This document shows positions 31,693 through 49,986 of a stretch of DNA of 64,000 bases, piece by piece (the stretch's first letter is position 1; each line of letters starts with the position of its first letter). This DNA is from Devosiaceae bacterium (GTDB lineage Bacteria; Pseudomonadota; Alphaproteobacteria; Rhizobiales; Devosiaceae). Where the stretch lies: positions 1 through 64,000 of the forward strand of contig DASYCZ010000012.1 of assembly GCA_036499825.1 (NCBI GenBank). Reading direction: 5' to 3'. Under the pieces are notes generated by a model. It was not told the DNA's origin. It did not search any database and saw nothing but the letters and a program-made list of their open reading frames with translations. A program made the translations under genes and the position numbers.

Positions 31693-31777
31693 TGGCCCGC
31701 TCCGCGCCTGCCACCAGCCTCCCCACAAGGGGGAAGTCCGGGGACGGGCGCCTCCACACATTCTTGAGACCATCCGC

Positions 31778-33970: not shown

Positions 33971-34938
33971 CAGTGGCCCATTCCAAGCCGCCGAAATCGA
34001 CGCCCGATTTCTCCGCCTATCATCACTTCACCAAAGCCGAATGGTCGAAATTCCGCGCCGACGAGCCGATGACGCTCGATGCCGCCGACATCAAGCGGCT
34101 GCGGGCGCTCAACGATCCGATCTCCTTCGAGGAAGCAGAGGATATCTACCTGCCGCTGGCGCGCCTGCTGTCGCTTTATGTCGAGGCCACGCAGGGCCTC
34201 CATCGCGCCTCGATGAAATTCCTGGGCACCACCGATGGCAAGGTGCCCTTTATCGTCGGCGTCGCGGGCTCGGTGGCGGCGGGCAAATCCACCACCGCCC
34301 GTATCCTTCATGCGCTGATGCAGCGCTGGCAGACCTCGCCCAAGGTCGATCTCGTCACCACCGATGGGTTCCTTCATCCCAACGCCGTGCTGCAGGCGCG
34401 CGGCCTCATGGACCGCAAGGGCTTCCCCGAAAGCTACGACCGCACCCGCTTCATCAAGTTCCTCTCCGACATCAAGTCGGGCAAGGGCAAGGTGCATGTG
34501 CCGGTCTATTCCCACCTGGTCTATGACGTGGTGCCCGGCAAGGAGATCATCGTCGATCACCCCGACATCCTGATCGTCGAAGGGCTCAACATCCTGCAGC
34601 CCGGCGAATTGCCGAAATCCGGCAAGCCCATCGTCTTCGCCTCGGACTTCCTCGATTTTTCCATCTACATGGATGCCGACGAAGCCGACCTCACCGACTG
34701 GTATCTCGAACGCTTCCTGCGTCTGCGCGAAACCGCCTTCGCGGACGAGAAGTCGTTCTTCCACAAGTTCAGCCTGATGAGCGAGGAAGAGGCCAAGACC
34801 TTCGGGCGCTGGGTCTGGGCCTCGATCAACCGGCCCAACCTCATCGAAAACATCATCCCCACCCGCAGCCGCGCCGACCTCATCCTCAAGAAGGGCAAGA
34901 GCCACGTCATCGAGGAAGTCCACCTGCGCCGGGTGTAG
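33967..34938 (+). CDS. coaA: Type I pantothenate kinase
   Basis: P-loop [15 protein letters not shown] and CoaA family sequence. Confidence 0.9.
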
Positions 34939-34973
34939 GGGTACCTAAGGGGCGGGATAAAGCGGTGCGTGCC

Positions 34974-35087
34974 GCCCCACCCCACCCTTAATCCCTCCCC
35001 ATCAAAGGGGAGGGAAATCCCGACTGAGAGTCCTGCGGCTCCATCGTCTCCCTCCCCCTACGTGGGGAGGGATTAAGGGTGGGGGGC
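34974..35087. repeat. REP/RIME-like nested palindromic element (CCCCACCCTTAATCCCTCCCC ... GGGGAGGGATTAAGGGTGGGG)
   Basis: Outer and inner inverted repeats read directly; the GGGATTAAGGGTGGGG motif recurs at 44925, 45170 and 45395. Confidence 0.7.
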
Positions 35088-35142
35088 TACGATCTTGAGG
35101 GGTTCGCTGCTCTATGCGGTAGCATCCCAGCCAAACCCAAAC

Positions 35143-36144
35143 TCAGACCGCCACGCCCTTCTCGGCCGCCAGCTGCCTCAAATCCACGATCGGGCGTGCC
35201 CCGATATGGGAGATCACTTCGGAGGCGGCGAGGCACCCGGCCTTCAGCGCCATCTGGAAATCCTGCCCGCGGCCTGCCGCCAGCATAAAGCCTGCCGCGA
35301 AGAGATCGCCCGCGCCGGTTGCATCCACCACGTCCACCGGGAAGGCCGGCACGGTGACGATCTCGCCGTCATAGATCGCCATGGCGCCTTGCGCCCCCAT
35401 GGTGACGGCCGCCAGTTCGGCGTCCTTGGCTACCTGCTGCACCGCTTCGGGCAGGCTGTCGGTCTGGTAGAGCGCTTTCAGCTCATCGATATTGGCGAAC
35501 ACGTAGTCGATGGTCTTGGACCGCAGCAGGTCGAGGAATTCGTCGCGGAAGCGGTTGACGCAGAACGGGTCCGACAGCGTGATCGCCGTCGCCCGCTCGT
35601 GCCGGTGGGCATAATTGGCGGCGCGCACGAAGGCTTTCTTGGCCTCCACCGGGTCCCACAGATACCCCTCCATATAGGTGATGGTGGCCGAGCCGATCTC
35701 GTCCTCGTGGATGTCGGCCTCGGTCAATTCGTGGCAGGCGCCCAGATAAGTGTTCATGGTGCGCTCGCCGCCCTCGCTGATGAGGATCATCGAGCGGGCC
35801 GTGGCGGCGCCGTTGATCAGCCTGGTGGTCGAGTAGTCGACGCCGATGGCCTTGAGGTCGTTGGCGAACACATCGCCCAGCGCGTCGTCCGCCACCTTGC
35901 CGATGAACCTGGCGCGGCCACCGAGCGAGGCGACGCCCGCCGCCGTATTGGCGGCGCTGCCGCCCGAGATCTGCTGCTTGTCGGCCGGCATGCGGTCATA
36001 GAGGTAGGCCGAGCGGTCGCTGTCAACCAGATGCATGATGCCCTCGGTCAGTCCCTCACGGGCGAGGAACCCCGCATCGATAGGGGCGATGACGTCGACA
36101 ATGGCATTGCCGATGGTCAGAACGTCGTAACGGGTCTCGGCCAT
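35143..36144 (-). CDS. PfkB-family carbohydrate/nucleoside kinase (adenosine kinase-like)
   Basis: PfkB motifs (GGSAANTA; DATGAGDLFAAGF). Start chosen at the ATG preceded by GGAG; a longer alternative ends at 36156. Confidence 0.8.
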   Translation of the reverse strand: MAETRYDVLTIGNAIVDVIAPIDAGFLAREGLTEGIMHLVDSDRSAYLYDRMPADKQQISGGSAANTAAGVASLGGRARFIGKVADDALGDVFANDLKAIGVDYSTTRLINGAATARSMILISEGGERTMNTYLGACHELTEADIHEDEIGSATITYMEGYLWDPVEAKKAFVRAANYAHRHERATAITLSDPFCVNRFRDEFLDLLRSKTIDYVFANIDELKALYQTDSLPEAVQQVAKDAELAAVTMGAQGAMAIYDGEIVTVPAFPVDVVDATGAGDLFAAGFMLAAGRGQDFQMALKAGCLAASEVISHIGARPIVDLRQLAAEKGVAV

Positions 36145-36220
36145 CGGGGTCTCCATAGGGTGCGAGTTGCGCCGGAGATAACGGATTGACGGGTGTGGCG
36201 CAACCGCGGGCGCCTCGATT

Positions 36221-36802
36221 TCAGCGGTGCCCGAGCCCTGCCATGAAGGCGCCCGTCACTGCGCCGATCAGCGCATCGTCCGATTGCCCCGGCCGCCGGT
36301 TGATCTGGTCATCGAGCAGCAATTGCGCCAGCCCGTGCACCAGCGACCATGCGGCCAGCGCCGTCGCGTGCGGATCCTGCGGATTGGCGCTCGCCGCCAG
36401 GGCTTCGAGCGAAAAGAACGCCGTATCGGCTGACTCCTTCAGCGCCGGATGCTCGCTGCGTTTCACTTCCGGCGAAAACATCAGCCGGAACAGCGCCGGA
36501 TGCGTCAGCGCGAAGCGCACATAGGCTCGGCCCTGTTCGAGCAGGTGCCGCTCGACCGGCACGCCCCGGGCGGCCTTTTTCAGATCGGCGCCAAACCGCC
36601 GAAACCCTTCGGTCGCCACCGCTGCCAAAAGCGCGGTCCGGTTCTTGAAATGCCGGTAGGGTGCCGATGGCGACACCCCCACGGCTCGCGCCACTTCGCG
36701 CAAACCAAGCCCGCCCTGCCCGTCCCGGGCCAATAGCCCGAGCCCCGCTTCCACCAGCGCATGCCGCAAATCCCCATGGTGATAGGGGCTTTCAGCCTTC
36801 AT
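36221..36802 (-). CDS. TetR/AcrR-family transcriptional regulator
   Basis: N-terminal HTH (GLREVARAVGVSPSAPYRHFKNRTALL). It lies in-frame within a longer spurious ORF (to 37465); start taken at MKAESPYHHG. Confidence 0.8.
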   Translation of the reverse strand: MKAESPYHHGDLRHALVEAGLGLLARDGQGGLGLREVARAVGVSPSAPYRHFKNRTALLAAVATEGFRRFGADLKKAARGVPVERHLLEQGRAYVRFALTHPALFRLMFSPEVKRSEHPALKESADTAFFSLEALAASANPQDPHATALAAWSLVHGLAQLLLDDQINRRPGQSDDALIGAVTGAFMAGLGHR

Positions 36803-36876
36803 GTTGACATTGCTCACATTGGCTTCCACTATACGAACACCGTTAACATTGAAAATGCCGAAACGGAAGGCTGCGC

Positions 36877-37330
36877 CATGACCGATCTCGTCCTCGCCAT
36901 CGCCCACCACCTCGTCGTCTTCACTTTCGTGGCGCTCATCGCGGCCGAAGTGCTGTTGCTGCGTCCGGGGATCACGGGCGAGCGCCTCGCCCAACTCGGC
37001 CGCATCGATGCGGCTGTCGGCCTCGTCGCCACCTTCGTTCTGGTCGTGGGCTTCCTGCGCGTCTTTTTCGGCGCCGCCGGCTCGGCTTACTATTTCGCCA
37101 ACTGGGCCTTCTGGGCCAAGCTCGCCGCCTTCGCCGCCGTCGGTCTCCTCTCTGTCGTCCCCACCCTTGCGATCCTGCGCTGGCGCAAAGCCGCCCGCGC
37201 CGACACCGCCTTCGCGCCACCCCTCGCCGAAGTCACCCGTGTCCGCCGCTTCTTTGCCGCCGAAGCCATCACGCTCATCCTCATCCCCACCTTCGCCGCC
37301 ATGATGGCGCGGGGGTATGGGAGTTTTTGA
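36877..37330 (+). CDS. Small integral membrane protein (4 predicted TM helices), divergent from the TetR gene
   Basis: 150 aa, highly hydrophobic (LVVFTFVALIAAEVLLL...). A possible target of the adjacent TetR regulator. Confidence 0.55.
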
Positions 37331-37467
37331 CGGGAAGGACGAGGTTGGGGAAGGCACTACGAGTTGCCTCATTGCCTTGCCATTCGGGTTCCGAAATCCT
37401 GTCATCCGACGCTGCGCATCGACCTTCTCGCAACCTGCGGATGAGAACCCGGAGCAGGCCACCATCC

Positions 37468-37620
37468 AGCCCCCCTCCCCAGAGGGGCGAGGTGGCTGAG
37501 AGATTGGCGGCCGCTTCTACGCGTCTGGCCATTCGAGCGTAACTGTCACTCCGCCTAGAGGCGGAACGGCTCGAAGTCCCCCCAGGGGCGAGGTGGCCGA
37601 GAAGCCTGCACCCCCACCCA
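37468..37620. repeat. REP-like GC-rich palindromic repeats (CCCCTCCCCAGAGGGGCGAGGTGGC motif, two copies)
   Basis: Read directly; the 'aggggcgaggtggc(t/c)gaga' motif appears at about 37483 and about 37585 and resembles the elements at 51.6 and 54.1 kb. Confidence 0.6.
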
Positions 37621-37626
37621 ACACCC

Positions 37627-38295
37627 CTACCCCACCGGCGTCCGTGTCTTTGGCTCAAACCTGCACCATTCACGGATGATGCAGCGCCAGCATTCCGGCT
37701 TGCGGGCCTTGCACACATAGCGTCCGTGCAGGATCAGCCAGTGATGGGCGTGCAGCATGTATTCGGGCGGCACCACCTTCAGCAGTTGCGTCTCCACCGC
37801 CAGCGGCGTCTTGCCGGGTGCGAGGCCGGTGCGGTTGCCGACGCGGAAAAGGTGCGTGTCCACGGCGATCGTCGGGTGCCGGAAGGCGATGTTCAGCACC
37901 ACATTGGCGGTTTTCCGCCCCACGCCCGGCAGGGCTTCCAGTGCTTCACGTGAATCAGGCACTTGCGAGCCGTGCCGGTCGATCAGCATCTGGCTCAGCG
38001 AAAAGACGTTCTTCGCCTTGGTACGGTAGAGCCCGATGGTGCGGATCTTGTCTTCGATGCCGGCGACGCCCAGCGCCACCATCTTTTCGGGCGTGGGGGC
38101 GGCGGCAAACAGTCCGGGGGTCGCCTTGTTCACGCCCGCGTCGGTCGCCTGTGCCGAAAGCACCACCGCCACCAGCAGCTCAAATGGCGATTCCGCCACC
38201 AATTCGCCCTTTGGCTCTGGATTAATGGTGGCAAACGCGCGAAAAATTGCTTCGACATCCGCCCTCGGAAGGGTTTTGCTTTTGCTGCCGGCCAT
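37627..38295 (-). CDS. nth: Endonuclease III (DNA glycosylase/AP lyase, 4Fe-4S)
   Basis: HhH-GPD motif (LPGVGRKTANVVL) and a C-terminal Cys cluster (CKARKPECWRCIIREWC). Confidence 0.95.
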   Translation of the reverse strand: MAGSKSKTLPRADVEAIFRAFATINPEPKGELVAESPFELLVAVVLSAQATDAGVNKATPGLFAAAPTPEKMVALGVAGIEDKIRTIGLYRTKAKNVFSLSQMLIDRHGSQVPDSREALEALPGVGRKTANVVLNIAFRHPTIAVDTHLFRVGNRTGLAPGKTPLAVETQLLKVVPPEYMLHAHHWLILHGRYVCKARKPECWRCIIREWCRFEPKTRTPVG

Positions 38296-38332
38296 TCCGT
38301 CCCCGCGATTCTCAGCCTATAGTGATGCTGAT

Positions 38333-38812
38333 ATGACCACGAAAACGCAAGCCGAGCCGATCTTCGCCGCCAAGCTGACGCCGCACCGTTCGCTGTCGCC
38401 CCGCGGCCGGCAGGTCCTGATCATCGCCCTCGCCATCTGCGCGGCCATTCCGGGCTTCGTCTTTTCGCGCCTGGGCGCCTGGCCCATCGTGGGCTTCATG
38501 GGCCTTGACGTTCTGGCGGTTTACTTCGCCCTGCGCTGGTCGATGCGTGACGGCGACCGCTTCGAGGAAATCACCCTCTGGCCCAACCGGCTGCAGCTGC
38601 GCCGTGTCTCCGCCAAGGGTAAGGAGGCCATCAGCCAGTTCAACCCGCGCCAGGTCCGTCTCGTGCTCGAGCGCGATTACGATGAGCGCACCACCGGCCT
38701 TAACCTGCGCACCGAGGACGGCGATGTCGAAATCGGCGGGTTCCTGGCCGCCGCCGAGCGGGCCAGCTTCGCCAAGGTGTTCGGCACGGCGCTGCGCAAG
38801 GCCCGGCGCTAA
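38333..38812 (+). CDS. Conserved hypothetical membrane protein (2 TM helices)
   Basis: Internal ATG of ORF 38036..38812; hydrophobic N-terminus, no assignable function. Confidence 0.5.
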   Translation: MTTKTQAEPIFAAKLTPHRSLSPRGRQVLIIALAICAAIPGFVFSRLGAWPIVGFMGLDVLAVYFALRWSMRDGDRFEEITLWPNRLQLRRVSAKGKEAISQFNPRQVRLVLERDYDERTTGLNLRTEDGDVEIGGFLAAAERASFAKVFGTALRKARR

Positions 38813-38885
38813 AGCCCGCGAAAAAAGCGCCTGGCGCCAAAACCGTCAAAACCGGGTCGTAACCCTATTGGGGCAGGCCTAGATT

Positions 38886-39761
38886 ATGCCCATGACAATG
38901 CATCAGAGCCTTTCACCCCATTCCGATTACGAAACCGTCCGTGCCGCCATCGCCTATCTTAGCGAAACCGGCGCCGACGAAGTCGACCTCGCGCGCTTTT
39001 CGCGGGCGCTGGGCCTGACGGAGCGGCAGTTGACCGATCTCTTCCGGCGCTGGTGCGGGCTCAGCCCCAAATCCTTCGCCCAGGCGGTGGCGCTCGATCA
39101 TGCCAAGTCGCTTTTGGCCCAGAACGGCAGCGTGCTCGACACCACCTATGAGGTTGGCCTGTCCTCGCCCTCGCGCCTCCACGATCTGTTCGTCACCTAT
39201 GAGGCCATGCCGCCTGGCGCCTTCCGCGCCCGCGGCGAGGGCCTCACCATGACCTGGGGCGCGGTGCCCTCGCCTTTCGGCACCGCCGTCCTCACCGTCA
39301 CCGATTATGGTCTTTCGGGCCTCGGCTTCGCCGATGACAACACCAGCGTGCAGCAGGCCTTCGAGGATCTGGCCAATCGCTGGCCCAACGCCAAATTCGT
39401 GCGCAACGACAACCACGTCGCCCCCATCGCCCAACGGGTCTTCGATCCGGGGCGCTGGTCGTCCGAGCAGCCGGTGCGGGTGGTGTTCATCGGCACCGAT
39501 TTCGAGGTCAAGGTCTGGGAAACGCTGCTCTCGGTGCCCTTCGGCAAGGCCACCACCTATGGGAGCATCGCCAGCCAGCTCGGCCGCCCCAGCGCTTCGC
39601 GCGCCGTCGGCGCCGCCGTGGGCAAGAACCCGATCTCGTTCGTGGTGCCCTGCCACCGCGTCGTGGGCAGCTCCGGCGCCCTCACCGGCTATCACTGGGG
39701 CGTGCCCCGCAAACGCGCCATCATGGGCTGGGAAGCCGGCGTCATCTCCAGCCGGGGGTAG
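38886..39761 (+). CDS. AraC-type HTH fused to O6-methylguanine-DNA methyltransferase domain (Ada-like regulator lacking the N-terminal zinc domain)
   Basis: The N-terminal half shows an AraC HTH pattern. The C-terminal half carries the MGMT active site PCHRV and the HTH of the Ogt family. Confidence 0.8.
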   Translation: MPMTMHQSLSPHSDYETVRAAIAYLSETGADEVDLARFSRALGLTERQLTDLFRRWCGLSPKSFAQAVALDHAKSLLAQNGSVLDTTYEVGLSSPSRLHDLFVTYEAMPPGAFRARGEGLTMTWGAVPSPFGTAVLTVTDYGLSGLGFADDNTSVQQAFEDLANRWPNAKFVRNDNHVAPIAQRVFDPGRWSSEQPVRVVFIGTDFEVKVWETLLSVPFGKATTYGSIASQLGRPSASRAVGAAVGKNPISFVVPCHRVVGSSGALTGYHWGVPRKRAIMGWEAGVISSRG

Positions 39762-39810
39762 TTGGACTTTCGGCAGGGGGCTTTCGATGTTCGGCGGCGC
39801 ACCCGAAATC

Positions 39811-39860
39811 CTCCCCTACCACCGGGTCATTCCGGCGGAGGCTGGCCGGAATCCATTTCC
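39811..39860. repeat. Short-form copy of the palindromic repeat family (CCACCGGGTCATTCCGGCggaggctgGCCGGAATCCA) also found tandemly at 44.9-45.4 kb
   Basis: Shares the CCACCGGGTCAT(T/C)CCGGCGGAGGC...GCCGG(A/G)ATCCA core with the 45-kb units; read directly. Confidence 0.6.
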
Positions 39861-39905
39861 GTGGCGCGCCACGCGCAACATCTCTCAGTCCAGGCGCGCC
39901 AACCC

Positions 39906-40520
39906 CTAGATCGCCACCTTGTCCTTGAGCCTGCCCTGTGCGTCCAGCGTGTAGATCACCGGCTCGCCCGTCGCCAGTTCACGTTTCAGGATCTGCTCGG
40001 GCGTCAGGCCTTCGATCGCCATCACCAGCGCCCTCAGCGAATTGCCATGCGCGGCGACCAGCACCGTCTCGCCGGCGGCGACTTTCGGCTCGATCTCGGC
40101 CTTGTAATAGGGCAGCGTCCGTGCTGCCGTGTCCTTGAGGCTTTCGCCCCCCGGCGGAGGCACGTCGAAGGAGCGGCGCCAGATGAGCACCTGCTCCTCG
40201 CCCCACTTCTTGCGGGCATCGTCCTTGTTGAGGCCGGACAGATCGCCATAGTCGCGCTCGTTCACCGCCTGGTTGCGGACGATCGTGACGTTCAGGATGT
40301 CCATTTCCTCAAGGATCAGGTCCAGCGTGTGCTGGGCCCTTTTCAACGCCGACGTAAACGCCAGGTCGAACGCAAAACCTTTCTGCTTCAACAGCCTGCC
40401 AGCGGCACGCGCCTCCTCGATGCCCTTTTCGGTAAGGTCTGGATTGCGCCAGCCGGTGAACAGGTTCTGAAGGTTCCATTCGCTCTCGCCGTGGCGGACG
40501 AGGATCAGCGTGCCGGTCAT
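39906..40520 (-). CDS. gpmA: 2,3-bisphosphoglycerate-dependent phosphoglycerate mutase
   Basis: [10 protein letters not shown] catalytic His motif and the histidine phosphatase fold. Confidence 0.9.
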
Positions 40521-40642
40521 TTGACTATTGTCTCCGATGAGAAGTGCGGCGTGAGGATTGCCCTGCCCTCAGGGCTTGGGCAATGCGGCGAAAGACGGAC
40601 ATAAGGACAGGCTGCGTCGGATTGGTGACAATCCGGCCCGCA

Positions 40643-41452
40643 TCAGTCGAGCCCCAGCACGTCGTTCATGGAATAGAGCCCGGGTCGCTGGCCCTTCGCC
40701 CAGTGCAGCGCCCGGATGGCGCCATTGGCGAAAAGGCTGCGGTCTTCGGCATGGTGAACCAATTCGATCCGCTCCGAGGGGCCGGCCAGTATGACGCTGT
40801 GTTCGCCGATCACCGTACCGCCGCGCAGGCTCGCAAAGCCGATGGTGCCCGCCTCGCGCGGGCCCGTATGGCCATCCCGCCCCTTGACGGCGCGTGCGCC
40901 GAGCGATGTCTGCCGCCCCTTTGCGGCCGCCTCGCCCAGCATCAGCGCCGTGCCCGAAGGCGCGTCTACCTTGCGGTTGTGGTGCATCTCCAGCACTTCG
41001 ACGTCGTAATCGGCGAGCTTTGCGGCCGCCTGCTTGACCAGATTGGCCAGAATGGCGAGGCCCAGCGAGAAATTGCCGGCCTTGACGATGCGCGCCCCGT
41101 TCTGCCCGGCCTCGGCGATCTGCTGGTCATCGGAAACCGAACAGCCGGTGGTGCCGATGATGTGGATCAGCCCGCGATCGGCGGCCTTGTGGGCCAGCGC
41201 CACGCTGGCCGCCGGCGCGCTGAAATCGATGATGGCGTCGGCATCGGCCAGCGCCCTGTCGACATCGTCTGTCACCGGCACGCCCAGCGTCTCGAGCCCG
41301 GCCAGGATTCCCGCATCGCGCCCGATCGCCGCGGAGCCGGGGCGATCGATGGCGCCCACCAGCCTCAGGCCTGCCTCGGCGGCGACGGCGCGAATATTGG
41401 CGGCGCCCATGCGCCCGCCGGCGCCCGCAACCACAACCCTCAGATCGGCCAT
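40643..41452 (-). CDS. dapB: 4-hydroxy-tetrahydrodipicolinate reductase
   Basis: N-terminal NAD(P)-binding ([11 protein letters not shown]) and DapB C-terminal domain ([18 protein letters not shown]). Confidence 0.9.
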
Positions 41453-41513: not shown

Positions 41514-42212
41514 TCAGGCGCGTCGCATGCCGCCCTTCATTTCATCGAGGATGTGCCGGGCCGCCACGGCCGGATCGGCCGCCGCGGTGATCGGCCGGCC
41601 CACCACCAGATGGCTGGCGCCGCGATCCAGCGCCTCGCGCGGCCCGGCCACGCGCTTCTGGTCGCCCTGCTCGCCGCCCGCCGGCCTGATGCCGGGCGTC
41701 ACGATAGACATCTTCTCGCCCACGATCGCCCGCACCATTTCGGCCTCGCGGGGCGAGCACACCACCCCGCCGATGCCGATGTCGCGCGCCTGCTCGGCCC
41801 TCAGCGCCACCAGCCCCGCCGCATCGCGCGCATAACCGGCCGCCGCCACGTCCACATCATCCATCGAGGTCAGGACCGTCACCCCCAATATGCTGAGGTC
41901 CGAGCCCGCGCTGCCCTTCAGCGCCGCCCGCATCGCCTGCGGATAGGCATGCACGGTCAGCATGTGGGCGCCGGTCGCCGCAATCGCCGCCACGCCGTGT
42001 TCGACCGTATTGTCGATATCGAGCAGCTTGAGGTCGAAGAACACGCGCTTTCCGGCCTTGATCAGCGACTTGCCGAACGCCAGCCCGTCACCGCCGTAAA
42101 ACAGCTGGTAGCCGATCTTGTAGAAATCCACCGTCTCGCCCAGCGCAGCCACGATCCCCTCGGCTGCGGCGCGCGTGTCGACGTCCAGGGCAACGATCAA
42201 CGTTCCCGACAT
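41514..42212 (-). CDS. pyrF: Orotidine 5'-phosphate decarboxylase
   Basis: Start at [11 protein letters not shown]; OMPdecase motifs (FFDLKLLDI; catalytic K). Confidence 0.9.
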
Positions 42213-42355
42213 GGCAGTCTCCCCAATTTTTGCAATGCCGCTCCCTCGCACATCGACCGCCCCGACGCAAGCCGCCGATGCTATGGCGCCATACTGCCCA
42301 ACAAAAAGGGCGCGCCCGAAGCGCACCCTCTGCTTATCGGCGATGGCGGGCCGCA

Positions 42356-42615
42356 TCAGGTCCGCTCGCTGCCGTCCTGTTCCTCCTCGTGCAGCACCGC
42401 CACATCGGCATTGGCCGACAGCCGCACGGTGTTGCCTTCGATTTCAGCCACCAGTTCGCCGCGGATGAAATGGTGATGCCCCTGATGGGAGCCCTCGCCG
42501 CTCGAGGCCCTGGTGAGCTTGATGCGCCCGCCTTCCACATGATCGACCACGCCGACCGGCACCCCATCGGCCCCGATGACATCCATATGCGGCTTGATCC
42601 CGGACAGTTGCGACA
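42356..42615 (-). CDS. Small DUF2171-like hypothetical protein
   Basis: About 86 aa; start taken at [18 protein letters not shown] within a longer ORF (to 42799); no assignable function. Confidence 0.45.
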
Positions 42616-42849
42616 TGGTAGTTCTCCTTGCTTGTGGAGCCACAACGTTTTGGGTGTCGGCTTGGATGCACGATCGGGTTGTGTGGGTCGGCATAGGGCG
42701 ACTGTGCGGCGCGGTGGCGAAGAACGTGCGTGCTGCCCCACCCAGGTTCATAGATTCAAGCCCGTTGCGCGTCTCCTCACGCCTTCCGAAGGTGACCACC
42801 CTCCTCGATCCCCTTGCGAATCTCGATATTATGCCGCCATAACATCCTT

Positions 42850-43296
42850 ATGCAGCAACAAGCTCTTTCCGCCATCATCGCCTGGGTCCGGCTCGACCGG
42901 GCCATCGAGTCCCTCAATGCCGAACTGCGCAAGACCCTTGGCCTCACCGGCCTGCAGCTCGCCGTGCTGCGCATCCTGAGCGAGCGTCCGCAATTGCCGC
43001 TGGCCGCCCTGCGCAAGGCGCTGGTCATGCATCCGGCAACGCTCGGCCAGGCCGTGGATGAATTGCGCATCATGGGCCTTTGCCTCGTGCGCCGCGATAG
43101 CCGCGATCGGCGGGCCCGCCTCGTCGCCATCACCCCGGAGGGCACGGCGCTGCTGGAGCGCGCCCCGCTCGCGGGGCCGGTGCGCCTGCGCCAGGTTGCC
43201 GCCGAGCCCGAGCGGCTCGAACGCCTCGCCGCGGCGCTGGAAGATGCCGTCGACCTGTTCGGCCTGACCGGCTGGGCACCCGGAGCCAAACCATGA
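42850..43296 (+). CDS. MarR-family transcriptional regulator
   Basis: Winged-helix MarR pattern (LTGLQLAVLRIL...RDSRDRRARLVAITPEG). Confidence 0.8.
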   Translation: MQQQALSAIIAWVRLDRAIESLNAELRKTLGLTGLQLAVLRILSERPQLPLAALRKALVMHPATLGQAVDELRIMGLCLVRRDSRDRRARLVAITPEGTALLERAPLAGPVRLRQVAAEPERLERLAAALEDAVDLFGLTGWAPGAKP

Positions 43297-43565
43297 CCCG
43301 CCTGCAGGGGCTGCCCAATATCGGCCCGGTCCTCGCGCAACGCCTCGAGAAAGCCGGCATCGCTTCCGCCGAAGAATTTCTGGCGCTGGGTGATGAGGCC
43401 GCTTTCGCCCGCCTCGTCGCCCTTTATCCCGAGGATGCCTGCACCCATACGCGCCTGGCGCTGGCGGGCGCTGCGCGCAACACCCGCTGGATGGCGCTCG
43501 ACAGGCAATTGCGCCAGAGCCTTTGCCAAGGGGCTGCGCTGAAACGCCATCGAACAAAAACCTAA
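43293..43565 (+). CDS. Small TfoX C-terminal-domain-like (helix-hairpin-helix) protein
   Basis: 90 aa (LQGLPNIGPVLAQRLEKAGIASAEEFLALGDEAAFARL); its ATG overlaps the MarR stop. Confidence 0.5.
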   Translation: MTRLQGLPNIGPVLAQRLEKAGIASAEEFLALGDEAAFARLVALYPEDACTHTRLALAGAARNTRWMALDRQLRQSLCQGAALKRHRTKT

Positions 43566-43569
43566 AGCT

Positions 43570-44163
43570 CTAGGCCGAAAAATCCTCCATCGCGCGCCAG
43601 TCGCTCAAGAGCCGCAGGTCGCGCGAAAAGGCAAAGATATTGCCACCGCCCGGCGCCGCCATCAGCCGCTGGTCTTCGCTGAGTGCGACGGGCCGGTTGC
43701 CCAATGCGCATTTCAGCAGTGTGCCCACGCACCCATGCCCGCAAAAGGCCACGTGGGTATCCTGCGGCAGTTCCGCGAGCTTCCGTTTGACGGCCGCAAC
43801 GATCCGGCTTTGGGCCGCCGCGGCGGTTTCCCAACCCCGATAGCTGACCTCGGGCTTACCGAACAATTCGCGCACAGCCTCGGCAAACCCGTCGCCCGCA
43901 AGAAACCCGGTGGAGGAGCGATCGTTCTCATCGAACGCCTCGTCGTGGCTCACGACGCCGGCGCAGGCCGTGGCGAGAATCGCCGCCAAATCCATGGCCT
44001 TCTGCTCGGTGCTCGCCGCCAGCCTCGTGCCCGTCGCCAGCAGTCCGCGCGCCGCGAAGCGCTCGGCCCGGGCCCGGCCGATGGCGTTGAGGCCCCAGCG
44101 CGGTGTCGGCACCTGCGGATCGATATCGACTTCCGGATGCGTGATGTAAAGCAGGGGCTGCAT
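43570..44163 (-). CDS. Histidine phosphatase family protein
   Basis: RHG-like N-terminal motif (ITHPEV) and a C-terminal catalytic His (CGHGCV). Confidence 0.7.
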   Translation of the reverse strand: MQPLLYITHPEVDIDPQVPTPRWGLNAIGRARAERFAARGLLATGTRLAASTEQKAMDLAAILATACAGVVSHDEAFDENDRSSTGFLAGDGFAEAVRELFGKPEVSYRGWETAAAAQSRIVAAVKRKLAELPQDTHVAFCGHGCVGTLLKCALGNRPVALSEDQRLMAAPGGGNIFAFSRDLRLLSDWRAMEDFSA

Positions 44164-44714
44164 CAGATGCCGCCGCGCGAAAAATGCGTCAGCTCTTTGA
44201 TGAGCTGCCCGACCTTCCAGCGGATGCTTTCCTCCAAGGGCTCGCCATCGGCGCTGAACGCCTCATCGGCGGGGCCGACGCCCAGCAGCGTCGGCGCCAG
44301 CAGCGCGCCGAGCTTGGACAGCGTATCGCGCAGGTGCGCTATCCCCACCACGCCGCCATATTTGCCCGACGACACTGCCGCCAGTCCGAACACCGCATGG
44401 CGCCACTGTCCGTGCTTTTGCCGGCTGATCCAGTCGATGGTGTTCTTGAGCAGCGCCGTGGTGCCGGAATTGTTCTCGGGCGATACGATCAGCACGATAT
44501 CGGCGGCCGCCAGCTTTCGCGCCAAGATCCCCGCCGCCGCCGGCGTCCCCTCGGCTTCGATATCCTCGTCGAAGATCGGCATGGGGTAATCCCCGAGGTC
44601 GATATCCTCGACCTCGACACCGGCCTCCCGCAGCTTCTGGCTGAGATGGCGCCGCAAGAGTTCATTGTAGGAGCCCTTGCGGAGCGACCCGCAAAGGGTG
44701 ATAGCCGTCTTCAT
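44163..44714 (-). CDS. NAD(P)H-dependent FMN reductase-like flavoprotein
   Basis: Flavodoxin-like fold motif (LCGSLRKGSYN...VSPENNSG). Confidence 0.75.
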   Translation of the reverse strand: MKTAITLCGSLRKGSYNELLRRHLSQKLREAGVEVEDIDLGDYPMPIFDEDIEAEGTPAAAGILARKLAAADIVLIVSPENNSGTTALLKNTIDWISRQKHGQWRHAVFGLAAVSSGKYGGVVGIAHLRDTLSKLGALLAPTLLGVGPADEAFSADGEPLEESIRWKVGQLIKELTHFSRGGI

Positions 44715-44789
44715 CGTCGCGCCCCATTCCATCAGGTTCGGGCGGACACTACCGGCTTGGCGGCCATTGGCAACCGCTGCCGTAGAGCC

Positions 44790-45420
44790 ACTGCGTTCGT
44801 CATGCCGGAACGGTGCGGTTCAGCGCGCGTGGCCACCCCCACCCGACCCCCATGGGGCCACCCTCCCCACAAGGGGGAGGGAGAGTGAAGGAGCCGCAAG
44901 CACTGCGCGGGTTTCCCTCCCCCTTGTGGGGAGGGATTAAGGGTGGGGGTGGAGCAGCGCTGCGCATTTGCGGCGCGGCAAGGTCCAGGTTCTCCGGTAC
45001 TATCGCTCCCCACCACCGGGTCATCCCGGCGGAGGCCGGGATCCATGCGGGGAGCGTCCCACACGCTGGATGTGTCGGCCCGCCACGGACATGGATTCCG
45101 GCCTCCGCCGGAATGACCCGGTGGGATGATTTGAGGCAAGAAGGCCATGAGAGCTAAGCTCGAATGGCCGGGATTAAGGGGGCAGCGCTGCGCATTTGCG
45201 GCGCGGCAAGGTCCAAGTTCTCCGGTACTATCGCTCCCCACCACCGGGTCATCCCGGCGCAGGCCGGGATCCATGCGGGGAGCGTCCCACACGCTGGATG
45301 CATCGGCCAGCCACGGACATGGATTCCGGCCTGCGCCGGAATGACCCGGTGGGATGATTTGAGGCAAGAAGGCCGTGAGAGCTAAGCTCGAATGGCCGGG
45401 ATTAAGTGTGGGGGTGGGCA
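44790..45420. repeat. Complex repeat region: a RIME-like palindrome (44790-44950), then two tandem roughly 230-bp units (44937-45173; 45174-45402), each with a long inverted repeat of about 35-bp arms
   Basis: Units about 95% identical, read directly. Arm 1 is CCACCGGGTCATCCCGGCG[G/C]AGGCCGGGATCCATG; arm 2 is its reverse complement about 45 bp downstream. The single arm difference between units is matched in the partner arm. ORF 44732..45421 (-) over this region is regarded as spurious. Confidence 0.8.
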
Positions 45421-45454
45421 ACGCGCGCCGAGTTCTCAGCCCGTGCCACGCCGC

Positions 45455-46590
45455 TTACGCGTCGAAAATATGCTTCAGCTTTGAGAAGAATCCCGTCGAG
45501 GTCGGGCTGTTGTCCTGGGTCGACAGCTTCTGGAATTCTTCCATCAGTTCGCGCTGCCGCCGGTTGAGGTTTTGCGGCACCTCCACGTCGAGCTGCACAT
45601 AGAGATCGCCGATATCCTTGCTGCGCAGCACTGGCATGCCCTTGCCCTTGAGCCTGACGCGCTGGCCCGGCTGGGTGCCGGAGGGCACCTTCACCTTGGC
45701 GCGGGCTTCATCCAGGGTCGGCACTTCGAACTCGCCGCCCAGCGCCGCCGTCGTCATGGCGATCGGCACCCGCGCATATAGGTCGGCGCCGTCGCGCTGG
45801 AACAGATCGTGCGGCTTCAATGAAATGAAGATGTAGAGATCGCCCGGCGGTCCGCCGCGCAGGCCAGCCTCGCCCTCATTGGCCAGCCGGATGCGGGTGC
45901 CGTCCTCGATGCCCTTGGGTATATCGACCGACAGCTTGCGGTTTTCCTGCCGCCTGCCCTGGCCGCCGCAATCGGTGCAGGGCTGATCCATCATCTCGCC
46001 GCGGCCCTGGCACACGGGGCAGGTCCGCTCGATGGTGAAGAAGCCCTGCGCGGCGCGCACCTTGCCATGGCCATTGCACTGCCGGCACGTATGGGTGCCG
46101 GTGCCGGGCTTGGCGCCGGTGCCGTCGCAGGTGACGCACCCCACCAGGGTCGGCACGTCGATCTCGACGGTGCGGCCCGCGAACGCTTCTTCGAGCGAAA
46201 TTTCGAGATTGTATCTGAGGTCCGAGCCGCGCAGCTTGGCGGCGCCGCCGCCGCGCCGGCCCTGGCCGCCGCCCATGAAATCGCCGAAAATGTCCTCGAA
46301 CATATCCGACATCGAGGAGGCGAAATCGGGCCCGAAGCCATGGGCGCCGCCGCGCGCCCCGCCATTCTCGAACGCCGCATGGCCGAAGCGGTCATAGGCG
46401 GCACGCTTTTGCGGGTCCTTCAGCGTGTCATAGGCTTCGCTGATTTCCTTGAACTTGTGCTCGGCTTCTTCATTGCCGGGGTTGCGATCCGGGTGGAACT
46501 GCATGGCGAGTTTGCGGTAGGCGCTTTTCAGCCCAGCCTCATCGGCGCCCTTTTGCACGCCGAGCACTTCGTAGAAATCGCGTTTGGCCA
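45455..46590 (-). CDS. dnaJ: Chaperone DnaJ
   Basis: J-domain (DFYEVLGV...HPDRN), a G/F region, four CxxCxGxG zinc-finger repeats and a C-terminal domain. Probable TTG start at LAKRDFYE. Confidence 0.95.
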
Positions 46591-46785
46591 AGAAAGCAGT
46601 TCCCCGATCGGCCCGCACGGGGCCTGAAGTCAATATTGCTTGCCTCTAGATGGCGCCTCCGGCCCTTAAAACAAGGGCTCGGCCACTGGGCCGCGCAACA
46701 ACCATACAGCCAACAATGATAAAGCGCGCCGCTCTTATCAAGAGGCAGGCGCGCTTTCAACCTTGGCGGGGAATATCGAAACTTC

Positions 46786-47841
46786 TCAGGACGAGCGCTT
46801 GTCGGTCGAAAACGCCTCGTTCAGCGTATTGATCACCTGCGACTGCGCGAACAGCGCCTTGGTGACGATGCTGCCAAGGCCGAAGAAATCATGGCCGACG
46901 CCCTCATAGGTCTTGGCGTCCACCCATACGCCCTGCTCGTGCAGGGCCTGCGCCAGCACTTCGCCCTCGGTGCGCAACGGGTCGAGTTCGGCCAGGATCA
47001 GCGTCACCGGCGGCAGGCCGGAAAAATCCTGCCGCTCGACCAGGTTGATGCGCGGATCAGCGGTGTCGCCGCGCGCCTCGAACGCATGGCGGGTGAACCA
47101 CTGCATCATCGGCGTATTGAGCGGCTGCGCCCGCATCGCTTCCAGATAGGATTCCCGCGTCATGTCATTGCCCACGATCGGGTAGATCAGCGCCTGGTGC
47201 ACCGGCATCGGCATGGCTTCGTCCCGCGCCTGCAGGGCGATGTTGAGCGCCATGTTGCCGCCCGCATCCTCGCCCACCACGGCCGCACGGCTGGCATCGC
47301 CACCCAGGGCTTCGGCCTCTTCCAGCATCCACAGCCAGGCCGCGTAGCTGTCTTCATGCGCCGCCGGGAATTTGTGCTCCGGCCCCAGCCGGTAATGGGC
47401 CGACACCACGATGGCGCCGGTGCGCTTGGCCAGGATGCGCGGCACCGGGTCGGCGCTGTCGAGATCGCCCAGCACCCAGCCGCCGCCATGCAGATAAAGG
47501 ATCATCGGCAGCTTGCTCTCGCCTTCGAGCGCCGCGGGCCGATAGAGGCGCGCCGCGATCTCGCCGATGGGGCCCGGAATGCTCACATCCTCGGTGGTGA
47601 TTCCCATGTCGTCGGCAAGGTCGCGCCCTGCCGGCGCCAGGACCTGTTTCACCGCCTCGGTCAGCTTGGGTTGCCGGCGCGCCTGCGCGGGCAGGCAGCT
47701 TTCGATCGGACGCCCGCCAAGATCGGCCAGCGTATTGAGCACATGCCGCATATCGGCATCCGCCTTCACCATCGGATCATTGGTCAGATAGTCGCCGATT
47801 GCCACGACGTTGTCGCCGAAGCTCTTGTCGATTGAACTCAT
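46786..47841 (-). CDS. Alpha/beta-hydrolase fold-3 esterase/lipase (HSL family), located between dnaK and dnaJ
   Basis: HGGGW oxyanion motif, the GDSAGG-like nucleophile elbow (GEDAGGN) and a C-terminal His. Confidence 0.85.
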   Translation of the reverse strand: MSSIDKSFGDNVVAIGDYLTNDPMVKADADMRHVLNTLADLGGRPIESCLPAQARRQPKLTEAVKQVLAPAGRDLADDMGITTEDVSIPGPIGEIAARLYRPAALEGESKLPMILYLHGGGWVLGDLDSADPVPRILAKRTGAIVVSAHYRLGPEHKFPAAHEDSYAAWLWMLEEAEALGGDASRAAVVGEDAGGNMALNIALQARDEAMPMPVHQALIYPIVGNDMTRESYLEAMRAQPLNTPMMQWFTRHAFEARGDTADPRINLVERQDFSGLPPVTLILAELDPLRTEGEVLAQALHEQGVWVDAKTYEGVGHDFFGLGSIVTKALFAQSQVINTLNEAFSTDKRSS

Positions 47842-47941
47842 TTACTTAGCCCCACGGTTTGGTTGGGCCGCGCCGCCGCGCGCCGGCCCAGACGTTCGTC
47901 TCCCCATGCGGGCAAACCGTGATGCGTTTATGGACATTTGG

Positions 47942-47978
47942 TGGCAAGGATGGGGAAACAAAAAGGCCCGGGAGCAAT
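47942..47978 (-). terminator. Rho-independent terminator downstream of dnaK (GGCCCGGGAttgcTCCCGGGCC + TTTTTGTTT on the minus strand)
   Basis: Read directly on the reverse complement. Confidence 0.75.
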
Positions 47979-47988
47979 CCCGGGCCTT

Positions 47989-48004
47989 GTGATTCACGTG
48001 AAAC
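47989..48004. other. parS: parS-like site (TGaTTCACGTGAAACt, 14/16) between the dnaK stop and its terminator
   Basis: Read directly. Confidence 0.5.
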
Positions 48005-48078
48005 TCCGCGCCTTACGGCACTTTCCGGCGAAGCCGTGAGGGCGGTGCCAACGGCAGCGCCCTCAACCAGCCCTGGAC

Positions 48079-49986
<1,908 letters not shown>

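What the first reader, a model, noticed from the sequence alone, without database searches (positions are those of the whole stretch)
44937..45402. Tandemly duplicated ~230-bp palindromic element with a compensatory substitution in its hairpin arms
Two approximately 95%-identical units (44937-45173 and 45174-45402) each contain a 35-bp inverted repeat, CCACCGGGTCATCCCGGCG[G]AGGCCGGGATCCATG with its reverse complement about 45 bp downstream. The only arm difference between units is G (45032) versus C (45260). It is matched by C (45105) versus G (45333) in the partner arm, so both units keep perfect pairing.

This indicates either selection for a folded structure (structured ncRNA, MITE terminal inverted repeats, or a protein-binding cruciform) or intra-palindrome gene conversion. 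Each arm is itself a small hairpin (CCCGGCggagGCCGGG). A single-hairpin short form of the same family sits at 39811-39860. No annotated function is evident; the overlapping ORF (44732..45421 minus) looks spurious.
Basis: seen in the sequence. Interest (0 to 1): 0.6.

Follow-up and report, generated by a model that had tools for sequence, protein, structure and literature searches.

The report
Duplicated REP-type palindromic repeat in Devosia
The feature is real but ordinary: two tandem copies of a paired "REP" hairpin repeat that is scattered through the intergenic DNA of Devosia bacteria and fits a repeat class (CGTC-tagged REPs) described in 2013.

Summary
Two 228-nt tandem units (44951-45178, 45179-45406) are 96.5% identical. 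Each carries 35-nt inverted arms 42 nt apart, and the G/C difference at 45032/45260 is mirrored by C/G at 45105/45333.

The 228-nt unit is not the element. The conserved, dispersed unit is a ~116-nt head-to-head dimer of a 27-nt hairpin repeat: (G/T/C)GTC tag, 8-bp stem ATTCCGGC/GCCGGAAT or ATCCCGGC/GCCGGGAT, tetraloop GNAG, tail CCA. It occurs in many Devosia genomes and fits the CGTC-1 REP class of Di Nocera et al. 2013, the class that includes Neisseria dRS3. The ~114 nt of flanking DNA in each window unit has no other copy in the sequence I hold, so the array looks like a local tandem duplication, bounded by a 20-nt direct repeat borrowed from a second palindromic family next door.

The "compensatory" site is the second base of each REP tetraloop. 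Across 22 Devosia dimers the two loops match in 18 (about 13 expected within genomes, p = 0.005), so the covariation is real but already noted for this class ("homodimers predominate").

No RAYT transposase, target-site duplication or Rfam family was found, and the overlapping ORF is spurious. The likely role, inferred only, is a transcribed, very stable hairpin downstream of dnaJ. New member of a known kind; low interest.

The parts
44951..45178 (.). Tandem unit 1 (228 nt): unique left flank (44953-45012), REP dimer, unique right flank (45125-45178)
   Evidence: The flanks have no other copy in the window or in the Devosia loci held.
45179..45406 (.). Tandem unit 2 (228 nt), 220/228 identical to unit 1
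45013..45124 (-). REP head-to-head dimer 1. The tag-to-tag core is 45019-45118. The outer inverted ends are CCACCGG/CCGGTGG. The usual family orientation (ATTCCGGC arm first) is on the minus strand, the strand of dnaJ.
   Evidence: Folds as one hairpin at -93.3 (minus) and -90.2 (plus) kcal/mol as RNA, z = -8.7 and -8.4.
45019..45045 (+). REP unit 1a: tag GGTC 45019-22, stem ATCCCGGC 45023-30, loop GGAG 45031-34 (variable base 45032), stem GCCGGGAT 45035-42, tail CCA 45043-45
   Evidence: Sequence.
45092..45118 (-). REP unit 1b (read on the minus strand: GGTC-ATTCCGGC-GGAG-GCCGGAAT-CCA). On the plus strand the loop is CTCC 45103-06, with the variable base at 45105.
   Evidence: Sequence.
45241..45352 (-). 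REP head-to-head dimer 2 (tag-to-tag core 45247-45346), loops GCAG/GCAG
   Evidence: Folds at -88.3 and -87.1 kcal/mol, z = -8.8 and -8.0.
45247..45273 (+). REP unit 2a: GGTC-ATCCCGGC-GCAG-GCCGGGAT-CCA (variable base 45260)
45320..45346 (-). REP unit 2b: GGTC-ATTCCGGC-GCAG-GCCGGAAT-CCA on the minus strand (variable base 45333)
44933..44952 (+). 20-nt direct repeat GGGATTAAGGGTGGGGGTGG bounding the array on the left. It is the right end of the neighbouring 'family A' palindrome.
   Evidence: D2. The same tail belongs to family A copies in the window and in other Devosia genomes.
45398..45417 (+). Second copy of the 20-nt direct repeat (GGGATTAAGTGTGGGGGTGG) bounding the array on the right. The junction between the units keeps only GGGATTAAGGG.
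44830..44952 (.). Neighbouring 'family A' palindromic repeat: arms CCCTCCCCACAAGGGGGAGGGA, outer CCACCCCCACCC/GGGTGGGGGTGG. A different dispersed Devosia repeat; it supplies the direct repeat that bounds the array.
39825..39855 (+). Single REP unit of the same family: GGTC-ATTCCGGC-GGAGGCTG-GCCGGAAT-CCA. It lies at the site where Devosia limi has a full dimer.
   Evidence: synteny and alignment.

Best explanation
The feature is a local tandem duplication (two 228-nt units) of one head-to-head dimer of a REP-type hairpin repeat together with about 114 nt of its unique surroundings.

The repeat unit is 27 nt: a (G/T/C)GTC tag, an 8-bp stem that starts with A-T and T-A, a GNAG tetraloop and a CCA tail. 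This is the architecture of the CGTC-1 class of repetitive extragenic palindromes, the class that holds Neisseria dRS3 and Rickettsia RPE-6. The family is dispersed in the intergenic DNA of Devosia. Synteny with Devosia limi indicates that the window comes from a Devosia-like alphaproteobacterium.

Shown:
- family membership by sequence architecture;
- dispersal across Devosia genomes;
- the local nature of the 228-nt period, within the sequence held;
- strong conservation of the two small hairpins, with T-A/C-G covariation;
- a significant tendency for the two loops of a dimer to carry complementary bases.

Inferred:
1. The duplication arose by unequal recombination or slippage between the two 20-nt GGGATTAAG(G/T)GTGGGGGTGG copies that bound the array.
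2. The G/C plus C/G difference between units is the replacement of one 'homodimer' allele (GGAG/GGAG) by another (GCAG/GCAG), both of which are common in the family. This could have happened by short-tract conversion from another copy, or by a second mutation favoured because it restores the dimer-level hairpin.
3. The array lies between dnaJ and the next gene on the same strand, so it is probably transcribed and forms very stable hairpins (about -90 kcal/mol each). Such hairpins would act like other REPs as 3' exonuclease barriers or processing sites that tune the relative levels of flanking transcripts.

How the family spreads is unknown. The literature reports no dedicated transposase for CGTC REPs, and none was found here.
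For: Family and taxon:
- A scan of 185,579 species genomes with CACCGGGTCATYCCGGCG found matches with the full repeat context only in Devosia (D. limi, D. algicola, D. faecipullorum, strains A8/3-2, Root635 and LC5, and many MAGs). Other taxa gave isolated chance hits.
- Window 34016-41452 is syntenic with D. limi at 68-81% nucleotide identity.

Architecture, from 77 units:
- 75 have perfect 8-bp stems; 57 are ATTCCGGC/GCCGGAAT and 18 are ATCCCGGC/GCCGGGAT.
- Loops: GCAG 42, GAAG 17, GGAG 15.
- Tail CCA in 68 of 77.
- Tags: GGTC 44 (inflated, because the search pattern required it), TGTC 26, CGTC 6.
- This matches the published definition: CGTC, often TGTC or CCTC; 8-bp stem with A-T residues in the first two positions; 4-nt loop in family 1; CCA tail; mostly head-to-head dimers with 20-100 bp spacers; mostly in alpha-Proteobacteria (PMC3733652).

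Dimers:
- 22 head-to-head dimers span 90-102 nt from tag to tag.
- The local hairpins are paired in 99.4% of cells, with C-G/U-A covariation.
- The long hairpin is paired in 88.8%; its only covarying pair is the loop base: CG 11, GC 5, AU 2, GU 1, other 3.
- Loop bases match in 18 of 22 dimers, against 8.8 expected by global shuffle (0 of 10,000 shuffles reached 18) and 13.1 by within-genome shuffle (p = 0.005).

Local duplication:
- The unit flanks have no other copy in the 64-kb window or in the ~45 Devosia loci held.
- A 22-mer from the flank has one unrelated hit in the metagenome collection.
- The array is bounded by a 20-nt direct repeat.
- D. limi has an independent 215-nt x 2.7 array of dimers plus flanks at another locus. 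[quoted passage not shown]

Context:
- Of 31 scorable REP sites, 20 lie between same-direction genes, 8 between convergent genes, 3 between divergent genes and none inside genes (crude gene calls). This is the published REP pattern.
- Fold energies are -87 to -93 kcal/mol, z about -8.
Against: - The tag in the window is GGTC in all four units, not the canonical CGTC; GGTC is not among the variants the paper lists. Figure 2 of the paper, which gives the family consensus sequences, could not be read, so assignment to family 1 rests on the text description.
- No transcript data exist, and no sigma-70 promoter or intrinsic terminator was found in the spacer. The RNA-level role is inference by analogy.
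- The array rests on a single metagenome assembly. The only other assembly of this strain breaks inside the neighbouring palindrome.
- The middle junction lacks 9 nt of the 20-nt repeat, so the simple unequal-crossover model needs a secondary deletion.
- In the D. limi array the left loops differ (G, C, A) while the right loops stay G. Loop matching is therefore not obligatory.
Confidence: 0.78

Rival explanations
1. It is a REPIN in the strict sense: a REP doublet copied around the genome by a single-copy RAYT (REP-associated tyrosine transposase).
For: The geometry is that of a REPIN: two inverted REPs, a spacer of roughly 40-46 nt, a long hairpin, singlets that look like decayed doublets (the window singlet 39825-39855 is orthologous to a full dimer in D. 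limi), and orthologous retention across species.
Against: REPs cleaved by RAYTs carry a GTAG-type tag. Here the tags are GGTC, TGTC or CGTC. No Y1/HUH transposase was found in the 64-kb window or in the ~45 Devosia loci around REPs, either by motif search or by tblastn with E. coli RayT and IS608 TnpA (best E = 0.16). [quoted passage not shown] A single-copy gene could easily lie outside the sequence held.
Confidence: 0.08
2. The paired G/C change was made and kept in place by selection for a specific folded RNA (a structured ncRNA, or two hairpins whose GNAG and CUN'C loops kiss). The repeat would then be a functional RNA gene rather than selfish or structural DNA.
For: Loop bases of partner units are complementary in 18 of 22 dimers, above within-genome expectation. 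All three loop alleles occur in both stem configurations, which implies repeated double changes. A chance compensatory pair has probability ~0.012.
Against: No Rfam family reaches threshold; the weak hits are generic long-hairpin miRNA models and a sub-threshold Guanidine-II match. Both strands fold equally well. In most Devosia copies the outer part of the long stem is unpaired: columns 3, 5 and 7 are unpaired in 11 to 20 of 22 copies. One stem position is an A-C mismatch in 15 of 22. Four of 22 dimers, including two of three in one tandem array, tolerate mismatched loops. The spacers vary in sequence.
Confidence: 0.07
3. It is a MITE: a miniature inverted-repeat transposable element with terminal inverted repeats, moved by a DDE transposase and leaving target-site duplications.
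For: Short size, terminal inverted repeats (CCCACC.../...GGTGGG), many dispersed copies, intergenic location.
Against: No direct repeat of 3-9 nt flanks the 22 dimers at any offset, apart from a trinucleotide that is part of the element's own inverted ends. The arms are themselves perfect hairpins with internal covariation, which is a REP property and not a TIR property. No related transposase lies nearby.
Confidence: 0.04
4. The two-unit array is an assembly artefact: two strain variants of a single-copy locus joined in tandem.
For: The contig is from a metagenome. The units differ at 8 sites, as strain alleles might. The only other assembly of this strain (Logan SRR11833507) breaks at 44883, inside the adjacent palindrome, and does not cross the array.
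Against: The junction (…GGCCGGGATTAAGGGGGCAGCGC…) is a distinct sequence with a 9-nt gap relative to both outer copies. The isolate genome of D. limi has a comparable 215-nt x 2.7 array. Tandem REP clusters with flanking DNA are described in the literature.
Confidence: 0.05

Closest known systems
CGTC-tagged REPs, family CGTC-1 (Di Nocera, De Gregorio & Rocco 2013, BMC Genomics 14:522; includes Neisseria dRS3 and Rickettsia RPE-6)
   Same: A xGTC tag next to an 8-bp stem beginning A-T, T-A; a 4-nt loop; a CCA tail; predominance of head-to-head dimers with spacers of tens of nt; mostly homodimers; an alphaproteobacterial host; location between same-direction and convergent genes; occasional tandem clusters that include flanking DNA; no associated transposase. 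D. limi also holds copies with the stem ATTCCCGC/GCGGGAAT (L022 6925-7000). Intragenic CGTC-1 peptides such as VIPAKAGI in the paper's supplement would be encoded by GTCATTCCCGCGAAAGCGGGAATC; that back-translation and the dRS3 consensus ATTCCC-N8-GGGAAT come from my own knowledge.
   Different: The tag is mostly GGTC or TGTC rather than CGTC. Stem position 6 is G-C instead of C-G. The Devosia family was not in the 2013 survey and I found no paper describing it. The outer inverted ends CCCACC/GGTGGG extend the element beyond the tag.
REPINs and RAYTs (Bertels & Rainey 2011; Pseudomonas, Enterobacteria)
   Same: An inverted REP doublet forming a long hairpin, singlets as decayed doublets, long-term vertical retention at orthologous sites, and compensatory preservation of the hairpin.
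   Different: No GTAG tag and no RAYT found. The dimer-level stem is imperfect in most copies, while the small hairpins are near-perfect.
E. coli BIMEs and Neisseria NIMEs (mosaic arrays of REP/dRS3 units alternating in orientation)
   Same: REP units in alternating orientation, reiterated in tandem with intervening segments, downstream of genes.
   Different: Here the intervening segments have no other copy in the sequence held and are not drawn from a small set of recurring linker motifs. There are only two periods.
Bacterial MITEs (Correia/NEMIS, ERIC, RUP)
   Same: About 100-150 nt, palindromic, dispersed, intergenic, likely co-transcribed hairpins.
   Different: No target-site duplication was detected. 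The arms are autonomous hairpins.

Membership tests
CGTC-tagged REP, family 1 (PMC3733652) | Terminal CGTC motif (TGTC or CCTC accepted variants) next to the stem | tested here: inconclusive
   Of 77 units: GGTC 44 (inflated by the search pattern), TGTC 26, CGTC 6, AGTC 1. The GTC core is invariant, but GGTC, the tag of all four window units, is not a variant listed in the paper.
CGTC-tagged REP, family 1 (PMC3733652) | 8-bp stem with complementary A-T residues in the first and second positions | tested here: met
   ATTCCGGC/GCCGGAAT or ATCCCGGC/GCCGGGAT in 75 of 77 units; 99.4% of cells paired.
CGTC-tagged REP, family 1 (PMC3733652) | 4-nt loop | tested here: met
   GCAG, GAAG or GGAG in 74 of 77 units. 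The window singlet has an 8-nt loop.
CGTC-tagged REP, family 1 (PMC3733652) | Short unpaired tail, consensus CCA | tested here: met
   CCA in 68 of 77 units, including all five window units.
CGTC-tagged REP, family 1 (PMC3733652) | Mostly head-to-head dimers (tags outside), spacers 20-100 bp, homodimers predominant | tested here: met
   22 head-to-head versus 3 tail-to-tail dimers; 90-102 nt from tag to tag; 18 of 22 have matching loops.
CGTC-tagged REP, family 1 (PMC3733652) | High copy number, intergenic, mainly between same-direction or convergent genes | tested here: met
Context: 20 same-direction, 8 convergent, 3 divergent, 0 intragenic (crude gene calls). The copy number per genome could not be counted.
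REPIN/RAYT system | GTAG-type tetranucleotide at the REP 5' end (the RAYT cleavage site) | tested here: not met
   Tags are GGTC, TGTC or CGTC.
REPIN/RAYT system | A RAYT (Y1/HUH) gene in the genome, flanked by the REPs | tested here: inconclusive
   None in the 64-kb window or the ~45 Devosia loci. A single-copy gene could lie elsewhere; whole genomes could not be read with these tools.
REPIN/RAYT system | Inverted REP doublet able to form one long hairpin | tested here: met
MITE | Target-site duplication flanking the terminal inverted repeats | tested here: not met
   No flanking direct repeat of 3-9 nt at any offset in 22 dimers.
MITE | Terminal repeats related to those of an autonomous IS in the same genomes | not tested
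   No IS with matching ends was looked for beyond the loci held.
Rfam RNA families | Match at the curated gathering score | tested here: not met
   Only a tRNA elsewhere in the window reaches threshold. The best local hits (plant miRNA hairpin models at 42.7 bits against 77.5; Guanidine-II at 22.8 against 32) are below threshold.

The most novel reading that the evidence does not exclude
The complementarity of the two tetraloop bases in a dimer recurs for three alleles (C/G, G/C, A/T), in both stem configurations and in several genomes. The neighbouring stem position, only 7 nt away, stays different between the two arms. This pattern may mean that the dimer-level structure (a long hairpin, or a loop-loop kiss in single-stranded DNA or RNA) is what an as-yet-unknown copying or processing enzyme recognises. 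Devosia would then be a tractable system for finding the missing mobilising activity of CGTC-type REPs, a class that includes Neisseria dRS3 and for which no transposase is known.
Probability: 0.12. Interest if true: 0.55.

Novelty: new member of a known kind. Interest (0 to 1): 0.2.

Why it matters
The practical value is for annotation. This 722-bp dnaJ-downstream spacer, and many other Devosia intergenic regions, are filled with REP-type hairpins. They generate spurious ORFs (here a 229-codon one), break short-read assemblies and seed local duplications.

As far as my searches reached, the Devosia family has not been described. It adds a clean, abundant example of CGTC-type REPs, whose means of spreading is still unknown. 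The loop-matching signal is a small but real piece of evidence that dimers, not single hairpins, are the evolving unit. None of this would surprise a specialist in bacterial repeats.

Tried and rejected
- **Rfam**, at gathering threshold over the whole window and at permissive E-values over 44500-45700: only sub-threshold long-hairpin miRNA models and a sub-threshold Guanidine-II hit. Rejected as generic hairpin matches.
- **Overlapping ORF 44732-45421 (-):** no NCBIfam hit and not called in the public annotation of the same contig. Rejected as a gene.
- **RAYT/IS200 search:** Nothing found.
- **Exact-protein look-ups** with my own DnaJ (378 aa) and FMN-reductase (183 aa) start choices failed. 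The esterase and the 189-aa version identified the source contig.
- **Metagenome scan** with a 22-mer from the unit's left flank, to find other copies or orthologous arrays: one unrelated 23-nt hit. The collection evidently lacks the source contig, so this is a weak negative.
- **Plasmid collection** (blastn, distant mode) with one dimer: a single 75% hit in a Sphingomonas plasmid, not followed up.
- **Target-site duplication test:** negative.
- **Promoter and terminator scan** of the spacer: none.
- **Clustering of differences:** 5 of the 8 differences between units lie in the 74 nt from loop to loop, which might mark a conversion tract. Suggestive only (Fisher p = 0.076).
- **Spacer substitutions:** the three spacer differences are not compensatory. 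They weaken a small inner stem in unit 2.

Full report
**1. The observation**

The window holds a clean tandem repeat. Tandem Repeats Finder gives 44954-45406, period 228, 2.0 copies, 96% matches and no indels. The gapless repeat finder gives 44951-45178 and 45179-45406. The two units differ at eight positions: 44953, 44988, 45032, 45073, 45074, 45081, 45105 and 45147.

Each unit holds 35-nt inverted arms separated by 42 nt: 45013-47/45090-124 and 45241-75/45318-52. The arms are 33/35 complementary. The only differences between units inside the arms are G45032 versus C45260 and C45105 versus G45333, and these pair with each other. In a simulation of eight random substitutions per unit, a compensatory pair in the 35-bp stem arises 1.2% of the time. 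The short form near 39.8 kb is real; the unit is 39825-39855.

**2. Setting**

The array lies in a 722-bp spacer on the minus strand between dnaJ (stop at 45455; NCBIfam PRK10767, E = 6e-166) and a flavodoxin-like/FMN-reductase-like gene (44163-44732).

The window is 100% identical to JGI metagenome contig 3300036781|Ga0376653_0000022 (719.6 kb). Its public gene calls leave this spacer empty. The 229-codon ORF over the array has no family match and is spurious.

The spacer also holds a second, unrelated palindromic repeat ('family A', 44830-44952). Its right end, GGGATTAAGGGTGGGGGTGG, recurs at 45398-45417, so the two-unit array is bounded by a 20-nt direct repeat.

**3. What the repeat is**

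Every hit with the full repeat context was in Devosia: D. limi DSM 17137, D. algicola, D. faecipullorum, strains A8/3-2, Root635 and LC5, and many MAGs. Hits in other taxa were isolated 18-mers in unrelated sequence. Window 34016-41452 is syntenic with D. limi at 68-81% nucleotide identity, which places the source organism in or near Devosia.

In these genomes the recurring unit is not 228 nt. It is a dimer of constant length, mostly 115-118 nt with its outer ends, with this layout:

CCCACC-GGTC-ATTCCGGC-GNAG-GCCGGAAT-CCA-TG ... about 40 nt ... CA-TGG-ATCCCGGC-CTN'C-GCCGGGAT-GACA-TCGTGGG

Across 77 single units:
- The 8-bp stem is perfect in 75. Fifty-seven are ATTCCGGC/GCCGGAAT and 18 are ATCCCGGC/GCCGGGAT, a T-A to C-G double change at stem position 3.
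- The loop is GCAG (42), GAAG (17) or GGAG (15).
- The tail is CCA in 68.
- The tag is GGTC (44, favoured by my search pattern), TGTC (26) or CGTC (6).

**4. Comparison with what is known**

Di Nocera, De Gregorio and Rocco (BMC Genomics 2013; PMC3733652) sorted prokaryotic REPs into GTAG-tagged and CGTC-tagged superfamilies. They describe CGTC repeats as follows:
[quoted passage not shown] - organisation 'predominantly as HH dimers', with spacers of 20-100 bp;
- hosts mostly in alpha-Proteobacteria;
- location between unidirectional and convergent ORFs;
- 'homodimers predominate among CGTC-1';

CGTC-1 in Neisseria is the dRS3 repeat.

The Devosia unit meets every one of these features except that its commonest tag is GGTC or TGTC rather than CGTC. 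D. limi also has copies with the stem ATTCCCGC/GCGGGAAT (L022), which I recall as the dRS3 type. It also has a canonical CGTC-tagged 9-bp-stem REP (L080 1184-1213).

I therefore file the window feature as a new, Devosia-specific member of the CGTC-1 kind. I found no paper that describes it. I could not read the paper's Figure 2, which gives the consensus sequences, so the family-1 assignment rests on the text.

**5. Why the period is 228 nt**

The parts of each unit outside the dimer are the left flank (44953-45012) and the right flank (45125-45178). Neither has another copy in the window or in the ~45 Devosia loci held. A 22-mer from the left flank has one unrelated match in the metagenome collection. 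That collection seems not to hold the source contig, so this negative is weak. Flanks of dimers in other genomes are unrelated to each other.

The array is thus best read as a local duplication of 'dimer plus surroundings'. It was most simply made by unequal recombination or slippage between the two copies of the 20-nt family-A tail. The middle junction keeps only GGGATTAAGGG, so a 9-nt loss must be added to that model. D. limi has an independent 215-nt x 2.7 array of dimers plus flanks at another locus, so such arrays recur.

One caveat applies. The window's array is supported by one assembly only. The only other assembly of the same strain ends at 44883, inside the family-A palindrome.

**6. 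The compensatory pair**

The variable base is the second base of each REP tetraloop. I tested two mutually exclusive structures on an alignment of 22 head-to-head dimers (A2).

*Two small hairpins.* These are paired in 99.4% of cells, with a C-G/U-A double change: 14 versus 7 in the right unit.

*One long hairpin.* This is paired in 88.8% of cells, but:
- the outer columns 3, 5 and 7 are unpaired in 11 to 20 of 22 copies;
- column 28/88 is an A-C mismatch in 15 of 22;
- the only pair with changes on both sides is the loop base (CG 11, GC 5, AU 2, GU 1, other 3).

Loop bases match in 18 of 22 dimers. The expectation is 8.8 under global shuffling (0 of 10,000 shuffles reached 18) and 13.1 under shuffling within genomes (p = 0.005). 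All three matched alleles occur both in dimers whose two stems differ and in dimers whose stems are alike. The matching therefore cannot be traced to a single ancestral event.

It is also not obligatory. In the D. limi array the left loops are G, C and A while the right loops are all G.

It concerns one base pair, and it is the same thing the 2013 paper calls homodimer predominance.

In the window, five of the eight differences between units lie in the 74 nt from loop to loop (Fisher p = 0.076). This is compatible with replacement of one homodimer allele by another through a short conversion tract, but does not prove it. In-place compensation is equally possible.

**7. Mechanism**

*Shown:* the repeat class, its distribution, its structure conservation, and the local duplication within the sequence held.

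*Inferred:*
- Transcription. The array sits between two genes on the same strand, and 28 of 31 scorable Devosia sites adjoin at least one gene 3' end. Many fill 20-90-nt gaps between same-direction genes (crude gene calls).
- Function. Each dimer folds at -87 to -93 kcal/mol as RNA and about -51 as DNA, with z between -7.8 and -8.8 on either strand. Such hairpins are expected to block 3' exonucleases or to be cut by double-strand-specific RNases, as established for E. coli REPs and proposed for CGTC REPs.
- The spacer has no canonical promoter or intrinsic terminator.

The means of dispersal is unknown. No RAYT or IS200-like gene was found in the sequence held, there are no target-site duplications, and the tag is not GTAG.

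The window singlet at 39825-39855 occupies the same intergenic site as a full dimer in D. limi. This shows long vertical retention and decay of dimers to singlets, as described for REPINs.

**8. Verdict**

The object is a locally duplicated head-to-head dimer of a CGTC-1-type REP: a new member of a known kind, of low general interest.

The most novel reading still open is that loop complementarity marks a dimer-level structure recognised by an unknown mobilising or processing enzyme. I put that at about 12%.

Noticed in passing
window 44830-44952, 34971-35085; fragment 31714-31734: A second dispersed palindromic family ('family A'). It has inverted copies of CCCTCCCC-NNNN-GGGGAGGG hairpins, flanked by ATTAAGGGTGGGG / CCCCACCCTTAAT tails. 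Like the REP dimer, each arm is itself a hairpin. Copies occur in other Devosia genomes (L006, L057, L071, L102, L103). It folds at -92.9 kcal/mol (z about -8).
   Followed up: partly
window 39825-39855 versus L080 5858-5957 (Devosia limi): The single REP unit in the window, with its loop enlarged to 8 nt, sits at the same intergenic site where D. limi has a complete head-to-head dimer. The window has lost the right half. This is an example of orthologous retention and decay.
   Followed up: yes
L086 5503-6535 (Devosia limi NZ_FQVC01000006): Four REP dimers at one locus, three of them in a 215-nt x 2.7 tandem array (88% matches). Each is preceded by partial CACCGGGTCATCA copies. The left loops are G, C and A while the right loops are all G.
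   Followed up: partly
L005 about 2090-2150 and L066 about 85-145: In two different Devosia genomes the right-hand REP unit is interrupted in its loop by a ~30-nt insert: GCCTG(T/C)CCTCGGGCGC(G/A)A(A/G)GCGACCCG. It looks like a further small repeat nested in the REP.
   Followed up: no
L080 1184-1213 and 1000-1043 / 1317-1360 (Devosia limi): A canonical CGTC-tagged REP with a 9-bp stem and 5-nt loop (CGTC-ATTGCCCGG-CTCGT-CCGGGCAAT-CCA), and a duplicated CCCACCCACCG(C/G)GCTGCCCACGGGCTCGACCCGTGGGCCACTA element. These lie in the spacer orthologous to the window's family-A site. Devosia carries several REP families.
   Followed up: no
L022 6925-7000 (Devosia limi): A tight dimer whose units have the stem ATTCCCGC/GCGGGAAT with loop GCAG. 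From memory, this matches the Neisseria dRS3 core.
   Followed up: no
window 37440-37640: Another repeat-rich spacer. It has two direct copies of CCCC(A/-)GAGGGGCGAGGTGGC(T/C)GAGA(G/A) about 110 nt apart and a CCGCCTAGAGGCGG hairpin between them. It shares a short GCTCGAATGGCC motif with the right flank of the tandem unit.
   Followed up: no
window 45455-48000 (L001 7856-12387): A hormone-sensitive-lipase-type esterase gene (46786-47841, minus strand) lies between dnaK and dnaJ. These two genes are usually adjacent.
   Followed up: no
window 42105-44883 (= L113) and 46428-48207 (= L002): Contigs from an independent short-read assembly (Logan SRR11833507) are 100% identical to the window. One stops at 44883, inside the family-A palindrome, and no contig was recovered across the repeat-filled spacer. 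These repeats seem to break short-read assemblies.
   Followed up: partly
window 25628-25654 (minus strand): A lone GGTC-tagged hairpin (GGTC-ATCGGGCGC-CAG-GCGCCCGAT) about 240 nt from the tRNA gene at 25892-25965. It lacks the CCA tail and is probably unrelated.
   Followed up: no
plasmid NZ_CP155757.1 100476-100560 (Sphingomonas parapaucimobilis): The only plasmid-collection match to the Devosia dimer: 75% identity over 76% of the query, with no annotation. Probably a sphingomonad CGTC-type REP dimer.
   Followed up: no
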